Assembly (NCBI GenBank): GCA_951406725.2
Contig: OX597822.1
Span: 109,368,001-109,432,000, forward strand
DNA length: 64,000 nt
Source of the DNA: Octopus vulgaris
Taxonomy: Eukaryota
Direction of reading: 5' to 3'
Made by a program: the position numbers and the translations under genes. How positions within the stretch are numbered: position 1 is the stretch's first letter; the number at the start of each line of letters is the position of its first letter. Below, piece after piece: positions 9,098-60,838 of this stretch. The notes under the pieces are model-generated. The model worked only from the letters and a program-made list of their open reading frames with translations. It did no database searches and was not told the DNA's origin.

Positions 9098-9275
9098 TTT
9101 CGGAATGGTCATATTGCCAGTTTATAAAAACACACGCACTATATATTTGGTGTTATTTTGCTTCAGTGATATTTATTATTTACATTAATCTTAATCTTAT
9201 TTCGGCCAAAGTTCTTTCGTCACACTCCTGTGACCCATCACATAAAAAAATCTTGCACAACAAATATTTAAACGT
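9098..9275 (-). mobile_element. Short (TA)n-embedded element with decayed hammerhead remnant
   Basis: Minus 9241-9208: GTGATGG-gtcaca-ggag-tgtgac-GAAA-gaac-TT; perfect stem II, mutated 5' core. Confidence 0.4.
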
Positions 9276-9824
9276 ATATATATATATATATATATATATA
9301 TATATATATATATATATATATATATATATATATATATATATATATATATATATATACGTATATATATATATATATACGTATATATATATATATATATGTA
9401 TATATATTCATATATACATATATTTGAGCAGGTACATAATTCATATTTCTGACTCATTCTTTCAGATTCCCTTAGTAATCATGCTGCATTTAAAAAAAAA
9501 ACAATTTATCATATATAATTCTATACGTGTTATGTGGTTGTAGATATAACCACAATCTAATCAATTTGGTAGTAGATGTATCTCCAAAATCATCTCCACA
9601 TATCGTTATAGGAATTATAAATTGCTTTTTCTATATCTGCATAGAAAAGAAAGTGGTTTGATTCATACATCGTATGCTAAACTTAGGTAAAAATGATACT
9701 TTTAAACGTATTGGAATTTATACTTTATTTGGCACATGAAATAATTATATAGATAAATAGGTGTGTGAAACAAACAAAAGAAAAACATGAACTCAAGTAG
9801 AATCTTAATGCATATTAAGATGTA

Positions 9825-10104
9825 CGCTTATGATGTTGTGGGCGAGAATGAGATCACCACAGCGGCGGCGTTTTTCAAGAGAATAAAGGTCGAGCGTCCT
9901 CAGCCTTTCTTCGTAGGACAAATTTTTGAGACCATGAACCATGCGGGTAGCCAGCCTCTGGACTCTTTCGAGATGCTGTATGTCTTTGAGGAGATAAGGA
10001 GAAGAGGCTTGAATCCCATACTCCAATATGGGTCTCACCAGCGTGACATAGAGTGGTAGGAATATGGCTGCTGTGAGCATTCCGAATGACCGTCGAATCA
10101 AAAA
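9825..10104 (-). mobile_element. Inverted duplicate of the internal CR1 segment 10204-10483
   Basis: 280-bp reverse complement with one mismatch seen (RRRC vs RRRR in the ORF track). Confidence 0.93.
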
Positions 10105-10812
10105 AGGACCGATCAGGTAAAGGACCTAGGTATCTTGGTGGATTCCTCTTTTTCGCCTTCGGCCCAGTGCGTCCATGCTGCCAACAAAGCGCGCGGAATT
10201 CTGTTTTTGATTCGACGGTCATTCGGAATGCTCACAGCAGCCATATTCCTACCACTCTATGTCACGCTGGTGAGACCCATATTGGAGTATGGGATTCAAG
10301 CCTCTTCTCCTTATCTCCTCAAAGACATACAGCATCTCGAAAGAGTCCAGAGGCTGGCTACCCGCATGGTTCATGGTCTCAAAAATTTGTCCTACGAAGA
10401 AAGGCTGAGGACGCTCGACCTTTATTCTCTTGAAAAACGCCGCCGCCGTGGTGATCTCATTCTCGCCCACAACATCATAAGCGGGAAGTGTAACCTCTCG
10501 AAAGAGCTGTTCTTCACTCCTGCTCCGGAGCGTCGGCTGCGGGGTCATTCCGAAAAGCTCTACCTGCGACGATTTCATCTCAATCGAAGGAGAGGAGCTT
10601 TCTCCGTCCGGGTTGCGGATCCGTGGAACAAGCTGCCAGACGAGATGGTGAAGATGCCGACGACCTCTTTGTTCAAAGCCTCCCTGGACCTCAAGTGGCC
10701 TGAACTCTTTACATGAACACCACCCTGTACTTAACTCCATGTCCCCCTACATGGCCTTGCTATTTGCTTTTGAGCCAAATTAACTAACTAACTAACTAAC
10801 TAACTAACTAAC
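10105..10812 (+). mobile_element. 5'-truncated CR1-clade LINE (RT C-terminus, 3' UTR, (TAAC)n tail)
   Basis: KDLGILVD...YVTLVRPILEY...LERVQRLAT...SYEERL..L.LYSLEKRR.RGDLI...RGHSEKL...FSVRV..WNKLP; open frame to stop at 10716; tandem tail. Confidence 0.93.
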
Positions 10813-10950
10813 ATATACTTCCCAGTTACATGCGTATTTATGTGTGTCTATATGTAACTTTTGAAGCACATTCATAAAAGTTCAAAACAACATGTATGTA
10901 TGTGTGTATATATATATATATATATATATATATATATATATATATATATA

Positions 10951-11160
10951 GTTAATCCAATCGAGGAAACAAAAACAAAAAAAAAAACAACAACGCAAGG
11001 ACGTGGAACAAATAAAGTATTATTGGAGGCTCAGGAAAGAAGGGAAGAAGGAGGGTTTGACATTTCGAGCGGATCTCTTCGTCGGTAACATAGGAGAAGG
11101 AAAGATCCCGAGAAGGGAAGACAGGGGAAAAAATTCGCTAGAGATACAGACGAGGTCACA
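10951..11160 (-). mobile_element. (TA)n-anchored short element with hammerhead-like motif (family H1)
   Basis: Reverse-complement relative of 47441-47606 and 60745-60838; 3' end ggattaac abuts (TA)n; motif at 11055-11089. Confidence 0.75.
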
Positions 11161-57644: not shown

Positions 57645-58077
57645 TTACTCTCTTTTTATTCTTTTACGTGTTTCAGTCCTTTGACTGCGGACATGCTGGA
57701 GCACCACCTTTAGTCGAGCAAATCGCCCCCAGGACTTATTCTCTGTAAGCTTAGTACTTATTCTATCGGTCACTTTTGCCGAAATACTAAGTTACGAGGA
57801 CGTAAACACACCAGCATCGGCTGTCAAGCGATGTTGAGGGGACAAACACAGACACGCAAACATATACACACCCACCAACCCCCACATATATATATATACA
57901 TATATATATATACGACTTGCTTCTTTTTAGTTTCCGTCCACCAAATCCATTCACAAGGCTTTGGTCGGCCCGGGGCTATAGTAGAAGACACTTGCCCAAG
58001 GTGCCACGTAGTGGGACTGAACCCGGAACCATGTGGTTGGTAAGGAAGCTACTTACCACACAGCCACTCCTGCACCT
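57645..58077 (-). mobile_element. Family A SINE, full length
   Basis: Reverse complement of family A. Confidence 0.9.
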
Positions 58078-59313
58078 ATATATACATACTTACATACAAA
58101 CATAAGTGCATATATATGTGTGTATGTGTGTGTTTACGCACAGGTAAATTCGATGTGAAAGGCAAAGAAATTTTGTTGATTCCGTAAGTTTACAGCTTTT
58201 TCATAATTTCCGTCATGTTAGATCAGTAAATTCGATGCAGTTGCATTTAAAATATCTACGCTGCACTCACAGACATGCACGCGTGCGTAAGTAAATATAA
58301 GACTGTGCAATTATACACGCCATTTTGTAGACGCCTCGAACTCATCTGTTGTATACAAAACAAGATCCATTAAATTTATACGTAATGATGGATGACAGTG
58401 GATGACATAAGAAAAGAATTACATTTCCAACTTGTACAATAATACACTTATAGAAACTCAGCTGCCAACATATTACTGTCAGTGTATCCTGTACACTCAT
58501 GATGCATAATCACATCGCAATTTGATAAATGTGCGACGTTTAAGCCCGTTCGTCAGCTGTTCCGCTAACTGTGCCTTCCGCTTTTTTCTCCGAATCCATT
58601 TGTATTACACACACGCACTCACACACACACACACAAACACACACACACGCACATACACAAACATAGAGACACACACACACACACAAACACGCACAGACAT
58701 GTACAGAGGCACAAACACGCATATACAAATACGCACGCACATTTACATACGCACTCACACATATACAAACAGACATACGCAGACGCGCATGCAGTCATGC
58801 ATGCGCACACTGGCCGTTCACACAAAAGCACACACACACACGCGTGTTCTAGTTCTTTAAATGTAAGCTTTCAAAAACAAAACATAATTCTCAATAGATA
58901 TCAAGAAACGTTCTATATCATCACATTAGTGATATGCAGTTAACGTTTGATGTATCTTTTGTTTTGCTGTTTGCAATAACCCGTTATATAAAGTTTGAGA
59001 GATAAATATATTACATCGTGCCTTAGAAGTCCTAGATTAGAATGCTGTTGAAGAAGCATCGCAGTTTTAAAGGAGAGAGAAATATTGTTGATAGGTACGA
59101 GCGCTCAACATCTGATATTATTTTTATCTTAACTACCTTATTTCACGGTATTGCATTTAGAATTCGATAAACGGAGACGTCGATTATACAAACTAGTAAG
59201 TGCTGCAGAGTAACGCTTATCTCCATCACTTTAAAACTCGGAATATGTATATCAGTCTTTTCTTGTGTGTATATACACCGAACGTGTAAATAAGGTAAAG
59301 TTTTTGTCAGTCT

Positions 59314-59648
59314 GAGGCCCCCTTCGGTCATGACTGCCAATGGGATTGCACCTAGAATGTTACCCTCACGGGCGCAAGTCCGGTCAAGGTTGTTTATGGA
59401 AGATCACCAGTCACCCATGCATATCAGCCTCCCCTCCCTACGCCAGCAGTGTTATCCAAGGGAAAAGTAAAGGCCGATACAGCTTGGCACCTGTGACGTC
59501 ACAACTCATTTCTAGAGTTGAGTGAACTGGAGCAACGGGAAATAATGTGTCTTGCTCAAGAAGACAACACGCAGGCCGGTCCAGGATTCGAGCTCACAAC
59601 CTCATGATCGAAAGCTCGACGCTCTAACCACTGAGCCATCCGCCTTCA
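59314..59648 (-). mobile_element. tRNA-SINE family C, full length
   Basis: Head ggcggatggctcagtggttagagcg...gagctcgaatcc; TSD tttgtcagt at 59303 and 59651. Confidence 0.87.
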
Positions 59649-60744
59649 CCTTTGTCAGTACATCTGTAGATATAACGAAGCTACATGGCGTATATATGGT
59701 TTTAAGCTCTATTGCATGCTGTAGGAAATTCAGTATTAGAGTTTGCAGTGGTTTGTTTGCTCAGCAGGTAATATTGGCCTAAGATAGGCAAGCAAACTAC
59801 TGTTCCACATTACCTTAATAATGATAAGTGAGAGCTAAAGAAGTCTTAGATATTTAAGCGTTACTGAATGCATACAAACGATCGTTTAGTGGCGACAGGT
59901 ATAACTTACCGAATCACTCAAACACGTAATTTTCATTTACCATACCGTATTATTCCAAAATTACCTCGCATCGTCACTGGCGGCTGAATTGCACGCAGGG
60001 CTTTGAAGTTTAGCATATGTAAATTAAAAAGAAAATAGAATTCTGACGATGATAAAATAAATTACCAATAAGATTTCGCACGCACACGCACGAAACACAC
60101 ACACACACACACACACACACACACACACACACACACACACACACACACACACACACATGATATATATATATATATATTTCGCTTTTGTGTCTGACTTGCA
60201 AGGTTCTTTATGAGACTTCGTGTGATAGAAGCAACTTTGTTGAGTCTAAGGAGAGTCATTATGCCAATATTTTTAAAAAGGGGCACTAGTTCAATTCCAC
60301 TTATTTATTAGTCATTTGGTTAATTATCCAAATAACTGCTTGAGTGCTAGGTTGCACAGTAAATCGTTTGTTTGGTATTCTTTTTTCGCTATTTATTGTT
60401 TGAGCTATTTTCAACTTTTCCAATAAATTTTTTTAGTCCGTTTTGGGGAGAAAATTTGTCTGTCTGAGGTCTTGGAGCATGCGTGTGCACGAGCCAGTGT
60501 GCGTGTATGCTTGAATGTGTATATATTTATGCGTCTATGTGTGTTGGCCTGCTTATGTGTTTGTGTATGTACATGTGTGTGTGTTTTTATGTGAGTACTT
60601 CCTCTTCCATATACGTTCGTCCGTATTTATGTGTGTATGAGCATGTGAGTCTATGTGTCCGTGCACCTGTGTGCCTATATATATATATATATATGTGTGT
60701 GTGTGTATGCGAGGCATGTGTATGCTTTGTATATATATATATAT

Positions 60745-60838
60745 TTTTCCCTCCGTCTTCCCTTCCTTCCTGAGCATCCAATAATACTATATTTGTTCCA
60801 CGTCCTCGCGCTGTTGTGATTTCATGTTTGGATTAACT
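60745..60838 (+). mobile_element. 3' fragment of family H1
   Basis: cctgagcatccaataatactatatttgttccacgtcctcgcg...ggattaac + (TA)n, matching 47527-47606. Confidence 0.75.

What the first reader, a model, noticed from the sequence alone, without database searches (positions are those of the whole stretch)
9098..60838. Guild of unrelated microsatellite-anchored hammerhead mini-elements
Seen: at least four sequence-unrelated families (43683-44061, 46714-47372, 49172-50059, H1 at 10951/47441/60745) plus decayed candidates (9208, 12145, 18761). They share one architecture: stem I, CNGANGA, variable stem II, GAAA, short stem III (palindromic ACGATCGT, ACAATTGT, ACGTACGT, ACACGTGT or ATAT where intact), NUH, stem I, then a 3' tail ending in (TA)n (or (ATT)n for 18761). 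Different palindromes at the same position are unlikely by chance. Inference: octopus (TA)n tracts host a large, diverse ribozyme population, and the palindrome may act as a family-specific dimerisation key.
Basis: partly seen in the sequence, partly recalled or inferred. Interest (0 to 1): 0.85.

Follow-up and report, generated by a model that had tools for sequence, protein, structure and literature searches.

The report
Penelope-element hammerheads in TA microsatellites
These short repeats are leftover ends of several Penelope-like jumping genes, plus one non-coding repeat that likely rides on them, and they carry a hammerhead RNA motif predicted to self-cut in pairs; this is a known kind, and unrelated families share the same palindrome, so it is not a family-specific key.

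Summary
Real but mostly known. Motifs far exceed chance (34 in 1.4 Mb vs 0.35 per shuffle) and 32 of 44 lie within 300 nt upstream of (TA)n (background 17%). They are not a new class: A (43686) and B (46592) are 3' ends of Hydra-type Penelope-like elements, H1 of a Neptune/Nematis-type element; C is a 588-nt non-coding tandem retrozyme-like unit. All three H1 copies here are broken or lack the motif; 18761 is an intact U3-A8 core variant; 12145 is a half motif. Palindromic helix III, many families per genome, and an octopus Hydra element with hammerhead and (TA)n preference are published. The 'family key' fails: 14 of 20 clusters share a palindrome, and one lineage switches it; stem I, not the palindrome, would block cross-dimers. 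New here: most sampled family-A short copies carry a likely spliced junction 9 nt before the ribozyme (22 of 32 arms), whereas most junctions behind the ORF keep the intron (16 of 20). Cleavage is untested. This scan reported the same kind of guild, and the failed key, on other DNA of this genome.

The parts
43686..44056 (.). Family A two-armed (inverted) insertion in (TA)n: - arm 43686-43902 with the tail, truncated inside the core; + arm 43904-44056 with the short end. 3' end of a Hydra-type PLE
   Evidence: ORF link in L025, L113
43913..43958 (+). Family A type I hammerhead; helix III ACGATCGT; A.A mismatch closing stem II; predicted cut after 43954
46592..47371 (.).
   Evidence: ORF link in L111, L112
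46744..46810 (-). Family B hammerhead; helix III ACAATTGT; stem II shortened against the family; predicted cut after 46750
47253..47342 (+). Family B second-arm hammerhead with a 1-nt deletion in stem I (limits read from the sequence)
49172..50059 (-). Family C: 1.52 units of a 588-nt non-coding tandem element; 5' end about 3 nt after the predicted cut, 3' end at the long (tail) end point
49467..49558 (-). Family C hammerhead; U4C core, 61-nt stem II, helix III ACGTACGT; predicted cut after 49473
10951..11165 (-). H1 copy, hammerhead mutated in helix III and stem I; 3' end of a Neptune/Nematis-type PLE
47441..47604 (+). H1 copy, hammerhead mutated in helix III and stem I
60745..60838 (+). H1 3' fragment without the hammerhead
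18761..18803 (-). U3-A8 variant hammerhead (helix III ATAT) of a repeat family ending at an (AAT)n/(ATT)n tract; element about 18684-18870
9098..9275 (-). 5'-truncated copy (cut inside the core) of a PLE-like family with C9 and non-palindromic helix III, plus an inverted tail piece
12095..12175 (-). Old repeat remnant with only the 3' half of a hammerhead-like motif (ACACGTGT); ribozyme not established

Best explanation
The motifs are type I hammerhead sequences left in (TA)n tracts as the 3' ends of several Penelope-like retrotransposons (two Hydra-type, one Neptune/Nematis-type) and of one non-coding tandem repeat that likely borrows their enzymes, and their palindromic helix III is predicted to let two copies of the same element fold into an active pair. 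Shown: motif excess over chance, TA adjacency, ORF links, inverted arms with a tail at one end only, tandem arrays of C. Inferred: the GIY-YIG endonuclease nicks (TA)n, the RT copies the RNA from a fixed 3' point and stops early, so mostly short 3' ends remain; the two ribozymes of a tandem transcript pair in cis and cut it; helix III stays self-complementary but drifts in sequence, and any family specificity comes from stem I plus helix III together. Most solo copies are likely inert.
For: A-motif lies behind an RT + GIY-YIG ORF in L025 and L113, the latter with two tandem motifs about 2,980 nt apart plus an inverted copy; B in L111, L112; H1 behind a decayed ORF through a colinear CA-rich UTR in two loci. 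Tail on exactly one arm in 16 of 16 A and 10 of 10 B two-armed insertions. C: 588-589-nt period, 98-100% identity, longest ATG ORF 49 aa, 23 of 26 3' ends at two fixed points (counted by hand). Palindromy emerges when not demanded: 37 of 62 hits vs 7 of 111 in 20 shuffles; stem I emerges likewise, 37 of 60 vs 7 of 174. Genome pattern count 20,026 vs 1,782 control; 72 of the first 100 listed have a palindromic centre, by eye. The double hammerhead is the homodimer MFE for window A and C. Same anatomy in PMC4209133 and PMC8557442.
Against: No cleavage test. The double hammerhead is the MFE in only 4 of 9 homodimers; not for B, H1 or the 18761 type. Monomer stem probabilities are about 0.2 for A and at most 0.02 for the window's B copy. 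Only 3 of 29 family-C 5' ends lie within 6 nt of the predicted cut, so the cut does not usually set the insertion end. Pfam gave no RT or GIY-YIG hit for the A ORF and only a weak RVT_1 hit (E 0.0048) for B; PDB gave one irrelevant hit; clades rest on motifs, no tree. No autonomous partner was found for C, 9208, 18761 or 12145. A lacks the G10.1-C11.1 pair.
Confidence: 0.87

Rival explanations
1. The helix III palindrome is a family-specific dimerisation key selected to keep families from cross-pairing.
For: Different 8-nt palindromes pair poorly with each other (homoduplex -6.4 to -11.4 kcal/mol, heteroduplex -4.9 to +1.0). The palindrome is constant inside young families (A 29 of 29, B 25 of 25, C 10 of 10 distinct contexts that pass the descriptor). 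At least 12 of 16 possible centres occur (by eye).
Against: 14 of 20 clusters share their palindrome; 7 pairs form a full helix III; 7 distinct 8-mers among 11 families vs 8.1 expected, P(>=7) 0.93. One lineage has both GATC and AATT centres, and A-like cores show GATC, GATT and AATT. In 6 of the 7 pairs cross stem I is 0-1 bp, so the palindrome is not what separates them; the seventh pair looks like one lineage. Partners are normally in cis in tandem transcripts (PMC4209133).
Confidence: 0.06
2. The families are independent small ribozyme elements, or motifs born in microsatellite regions, with no Penelope origin.
For: C and several sampled families are tandem, ORF-less units; no autonomous partner was seen for C, 9208, 18761.
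Against: A, B and H1 are continuous with PLE ORFs; C has the PLE footprint of inverted arms and two fixed 3' ends.
Confidence: 0.05
3. Chance matches in AT-rich, fold-back DNA.
For: Rfam gave no hammerhead match at E<=1; a few descriptor hits are likely chance (45857 in the window; 2 of 44 in the sample).
Against: About 100-fold excess over shuffles; 11-fold over the reversed-pattern control genome-wide; emergent palindromes and stems.
Confidence: 0.01

Closest known systems
[quoted passage not shown]
   Same: Many sequence families per genome, mostly solo or on opposite strands 100-700 bp apart, palindromic helix III, dimer model, extra nucleotide after position 9 in some, U3-A8 core variant.
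   Different: Longer palindromes (8 nt) and stems II up to about 60 nt; several families close stem II with a 1x1 mismatch; no cephalopod in the parts read.
Hydra clade of EN+ PLEs, incl. Hydra-1_Obim from Octopus bimaculoides (Craig et al. 2021, PMC8557442; passages and supplement rows read)
   Same: C-terminal GIY-YIG, CxCX5C linker, no CCHH, CxxC and CxH near the end, (TA)n target, hammerhead at the 3' end, inverted 5'-truncated copy, one-sided tail.
   Different: A and B are other families (different hammerheads from the Hydra-1_oBim row, compared by eye); tails are about 90-120 nt rather than 30-40; A has a multi-kb intron ending 9 nt before stem I.
Neptune/Nematis-type PLEs (motif definitions in PMC8557442)
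   Same: H1-linked ORF has DKG, a CX2-5CxxC linker and CCHH.
   Different: About 1.9-kb CA-rich 3' UTR; both ORFs seen are decayed; Neptune vs Nematis not resolved.
Animal non-LTR retrozymes (PMC7229834, passages; Li, Clavereau, Pollet 2026, 10.64898/2026.07.22.740005, parts 1-2 of 5 and passages)
   Same: C is a tandem, ORF-less unit with one type I hammerhead per unit, proposed to be mobilised by PLEs.
   Different: 588 nt is above the 170-400 nt of the 2020 paper, within the 51-972 bp of the preprint; U4C core, long stem II; inverted arms in (TA)n; circular RNA not shown here.
Drosophila virilis Penelope pLTR intron (PMC2377424 passages; PMC4209133)
   Same: Intron starts some 40 nt after the start site (46 bp there; predicted 37 nt here) and ends next to helix I.
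   Different: Penelope copies keep a 75-bp intron; in family A most short copies lack a 1.1-kb intron while ORF-linked junctions mostly keep a 3.3-kb one.

Membership tests
Type I / minimal PLE hammerhead | Core C3-A9 and G12-A14 with NUH site | tested here: met
   A, B(-), C and family-typical H1; 18761 as U3-A8 variant. Not met by the three H1 copies, 9208 or 12145 in the window.
Type I / minimal PLE hammerhead | Helices I and II above chance | tested here: met
Type I / minimal PLE hammerhead | Palindromic helix III allowing a double hammerhead | tested here: met
   37 of 62 vs 7 of 111; double hammerhead is MFE in 4 of 9 homodimers
Type I / minimal PLE hammerhead | G10.1-C11.1 pair | tested here: inconclusive
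   present in C and H1, G-U in B, A.A mismatch in A; a U.U variant is published for axolotl (PMC7229834 passage)
Type I / minimal PLE hammerhead | Self-cleavage | not testable with these tools
   needs in vitro transcripts
Hydra-clade PLE (families A, B) | RT followed by C-terminal GIY-YIG with CxCX5C linker | tested here: met
   translations; Pfam did not confirm
Hydra-clade PLE (families A, B) | CCHH absent; CxxC and CxH around the conserved E and N | tested here: met
   against the text
Hydra-clade PLE (families A, B) | RWK and DKT motifs | tested here: inconclusive
   A reads KWK, and the one near-full copy breaks frame at the DKT region; B copies are truncated
Hydra-clade PLE (families A, B) | (TA)n insertion, inverted arm, one-sided tail | tested here: met
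Hydra-clade PLE (families A, B) | Placement in an RT tree | not tested
   only a by-eye comparison with the alignment text
Neptune/Nematis-type PLE (H1) | CX2-5CxxC linker, CCHH, DKG | tested here: met
Non-LTR retrozyme (family C) | Tandem units, one type I hammerhead each, no ORF | tested here: met
Non-LTR retrozyme (family C) | Expressed as a circular RNA | not testable with these tools
   no RNA holder listed; circular fold -150 vs -123 +/- 7 kcal/mol in 30 shuffles
Non-LTR retrozyme (family C) | Canonical loop 1-loop 2 tertiary contacts | not tested
   61-nt stem II makes the standard layout unlikely; not modelled

The most novel reading that the evidence does not exclude
One Hydra-type element feeds two RNA pools into the same copying machinery. 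A promoter inside the long 3'-UTR intron fires a short RNA (about 37-nt first exon spliced onto the hammerhead and tail) that is retrotransposed as intron-less mini-elements, while ORF-bearing copies come mostly from unspliced RNA and so keep the promoter. Intron retention in PLEs would then reflect survival of promoter-bearing copies, not an inability to copy spliced RNA, and each solo end would be a ready source of ribozyme mini-elements.
Probability: 0.45. Interest if true: 0.6.

Novelty: new member of a known kind. Interest (0 to 1): 0.33.

Why it matters
As a guild it is a dense example (about 24 strict motifs per Mb, some 68,000 per genome by extrapolation) of a described system. The key idea is testable and fails on sequence, leaving a sharper prediction: stem I sets partner choice. 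The part worth bench time is family A, where spliced and unspliced copies of one element sit side by side; it makes the long-open question of why Penelope-like elements keep introns directly countable.

Tried and rejected
Rfam scan: no hammerhead at E<=1; the mir-3688 hit at 46984-47080 is the apex of B's fold-back. The repeat finder was swamped by microsatellites. My first label 'Neptune-like' for A and B was dropped for Hydra after reading the motif definitions. A very abundant PLE family (22,025 first-look candidates) was tested as H1's parent and rejected: no H1 match in 24 loci; it has a U3-A8 hammerhead beside two of its loci. PDB search uninformative. Sequencing runs: no RNA holder listed, so no reads were laid; this is no evidence on expression. 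The 4-row alignment only showed an A subfamily; no formal covariation count was made, because searches return the youngest copies. 9208 as a 'rewired' Naiad hammerhead: considered, not tested; an ordinary type I pairing fits. 18761 and 12145 relatives: one locus each read, so conclusions are thin. Literature: octopus + hammerhead or ribozyme + Penelope, cephalopod + hammerhead, heterodimer + palindrome, spliced or intronless Penelope copies showed no paper on a palindrome code or on spliced PLE mini-copies in their listings; the library lacks most subscription papers, the 2003 intron paper was not read, and the bioRxiv supplement and the supplement of PMC4209133 were not seen and may bear on novelty.
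Full report
Setting. The window is G000:C9:109368001-109432000 in a 2.8-Gb genome, 34% GC and rich in microsatellites. The species was not tested.

Observation. A structural descriptor found B and C in the window, against 0.005 palindromic hits per shuffle (0 of 200 shuffles reached 2). Allowing a 1x1 mismatch at the base of stem II added A; allowing the U3-A8 core added 18761. Rfam found no hammerhead. The three H1 copies are damaged: two have mutated helix III and stem I, 60745 begins downstream of the motif; family copies elsewhere have helix III ACGT. 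9208 is cut inside the core; its relatives (5 of the 140 sampled stretches) have C at position 9 and a non-palindromic helix III. 12145 has only a 3' half, also in the one relative read. 18761 belongs to a family with 1,124 first-look candidates, and the one other copy read keeps the U3-A8 core and ATAT. First-look candidates, which are not copy numbers: A 1,491, H1 1,200, B 1,035, C 1,119, 12145 64.

More than chance. In 140 evenly spaced 10-kb stretches (1.4 Mb) there were 34 strict and 44 relaxed hits against shuffle means of 0.35 and 0.85 (max 2 and 3 in 40 shuffles). 32 of 44 had (TA)>=5 within 300 nt downstream (background 17.3%), 14 of 43 upstream. Hits are not all independent: by hand 30 of 35 insertions; the misses are three of one family and two likely chance hits. 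Without demanding a palindrome, 37 of 62 hits had one (7 of 111 in 20 shuffles); without demanding stem I, 37 of 60 had it (7 of 174). Many of the other 25 have ordinary hairpin helices III or single decays. A genome-wide pattern for 8-nt helices III gave 20,026 matches vs 1,782 for the reversed control; 72 of the first 100 listed, all on one contig, have palindromic centres, 12 of 16 possible types, counted by eye.

What the families are. [quoted passage not shown] B: same layout with another protein, 45% identical over 240 RT residues. Both have a CxCX5C linker, no CCHH, and CxxC/CxH near the end, the Hydra traits in PMC8557442; that paper's supplement lists Hydra-1_Obim from an octopus with (TA)n preference and a hammerhead. 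Pfam did not recognise the A ORF and gave B only a weak RT hit, and I built no tree. H1: long copies run through about 1.9 kb of colinear CA-rich sequence to a decayed RT + GIY-YIG ORF with DKG, CX4CxxC and CCHH in two loci. C: 588-589-nt units in tandem and inverted arrays, longest ATG ORF 49 aa. In two-armed insertions exactly one arm has the tail, 16 of 16 for A and 10 of 10 for B; 23 of 26 C 3' ends fall at two points, about 201-213 and 297-317 nt after the cut site (hand count, 3 ends at locus edges left out). These are PLE footprints.

How it likely works. Shown: anatomy and links above. Inferred from the PLE literature: the endonuclease nicks (TA)n, reverse transcription starts at a fixed 3' point, often stops early and often adds an inverted arm, so short motif-bearing ends pile up. 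In tandem transcripts two motifs pair through helix III and exchange stem I strands (PMC4209133, where dimers cut weakly and monomers not at all). The double hammerhead is the homodimer MFE for A, C and two other families, but not for B, H1, 18761 and two more (4 of 9). Only 3 of 29 C 5' ends lie within 6 nt of the cut, the window's among them; 6 lie at 44-57. So the cut does not usually fix insertion ends. Cleavage is untested.

The key idea. Clustering all 251 palindromic hits in the held DNA (151 distinct contexts) gave 20 clusters with 13 palindromes; 14 clusters share theirs. One cluster is likely chance and two are likely one lineage. Among 11 clusters with 8-mers there are 7 types against 8.1 expected from 16 equal options. 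One cluster holds both GATC and AATT centres, and A-like cores show GATC, the wobble form GATT, and AATT; this is compensatory change, though CpG decay on both strands gives the same path. In 6 of 7 sharing pairs, cross stem I is 0-1 bp, and none of 7 heterodimers tested has the double hammerhead as MFE. So selection keeps self-complementarity, not uniqueness.

A side result: spliced copies. One locus (L319 + L027) runs from the A ORF end through a GT donor, 3,338 nt, to an AG acceptor 9 nt before stem I; a second GT donor lies 1,117 nt before the same acceptor. Of 32 A arms, 22 have the donor-2 join, 3 keep the acceptor context, 4 have the donor-1 join, 3 are unclassifiable, the window's among them. 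Exact genome counts: donor-2 join 78, unspliced donor 2 3; donor 1 unspliced 16, joined 4 in two loci; controls 0. The 22 arms match only 9-50 nt upstream of donor 2, while intron-keeping copies reach 198, 343 and 990 nt. A hexamer like an initiator (consensus recalled, from no call) lies 37 nt before donor 2. D. virilis Penelope has its intron 46 bp after the start and ending at helix I, and PLEs are known for keeping introns. Against: 16 vs 3 shows exact patterns undercount intron-bearing copies; intron sizes come from one locus; a short repeat at both intron ends allows a microhomology deletion; the joined copies could descend from few masters; no RNA data.

Comparison and verdict. It works like, and A and B meet the tested motif criteria of, Hydra PLE ends with minimal hammerheads; H1 meets Neptune/Nematis motifs; C works like a non-LTR retrozyme, circular RNA not shown. 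Papers seen: PMC4209133 parts 1-2 of 4; PMC8557442 passages and supplement rows; PMC7229834 passages; PMC2377424 passages; bioRxiv 10.64898/2026.07.22.740005 parts 1-2 of 5 and passages (0 hits for octopus or palindrome); others as listings only. Earlier notes of this scan describe the same guild and the failed code on other DNA; the one look-up for spliced copies showed no note on this family's intron, and a sequence look-up found nothing. New member of a known kind; interest 0.33, carried mainly by the splicing lead.

Noticed in passing
L027, L319 (G000:C1:225585074-225592200), L113, L025: Family A: two GT donors and one AG acceptor 9 nt before the hammerhead; short copies mostly joined, ORF-linked junctions mostly unjoined.
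   Followed up: partly
window 9098-9275; L204, L117, L206, L195, L034: Abundant PLE-like family whose hammerhead-like core has C at position 9 in all 6 copies read with the core and a non-palindromic helix III; activity doubtful.
   Followed up: partly
L289-L312: Very abundant young PLE family with CX4CxxC and CCHH motifs (many open frames of 776-847 aa, 22,025 candidates), long TG-rich 3' UTR; a U3-A8 hammerhead with ACCGGT lies beside two loci.
   Followed up: partly
L228:2307-4513: Seven-unit two-armed array of a roughly 359-nt retrozyme-like repeat; similar short-stem cores elsewhere carry ACCGGT, ACCATGGT, ACGCGT or ACATGT and both C3-G8 and U3-A8 cores.
   Followed up: no
family C, unit positions 44-57 after the cut site: 6 of 29 5' ends cluster here; cause unknown.
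   Followed up: no
L200, L194, L250, L276: An ACGT-palindrome family unrelated to H1 is mostly not next to (TA)n; one copy follows an (AAT)n/(AAC)n tract in L316.
   Followed up: no
L238, L272, L273, L188, L237: Hammerheads with hairpin or odd-length helix III, some tandem, that might fold as monomers.
   Followed up: no
window 9825-10104 and 10204-10483: Perfect 280-nt inverted repeat with a 99-nt spacer; matches repeats in L145 and L173; looks like a local inversion in a LINE-like piece.
   Followed up: partly
window 20848-21175: 62-nt minisatellite, 5.3 copies.
   Followed up: no
window 7560-7977, 24576-24810, 31450-32001, 45817-46043, 50294-50532, 52475-52709: Dispersed repeat of about 235 nt; the weak descriptor hit at 45857 lies in one copy and is likely chance.
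   Followed up: no
window 18402-18622 and 36432-36652: Two copies of a repeat abutting (ATT)n tracts; no hammerhead found by the scans.
   Followed up: no
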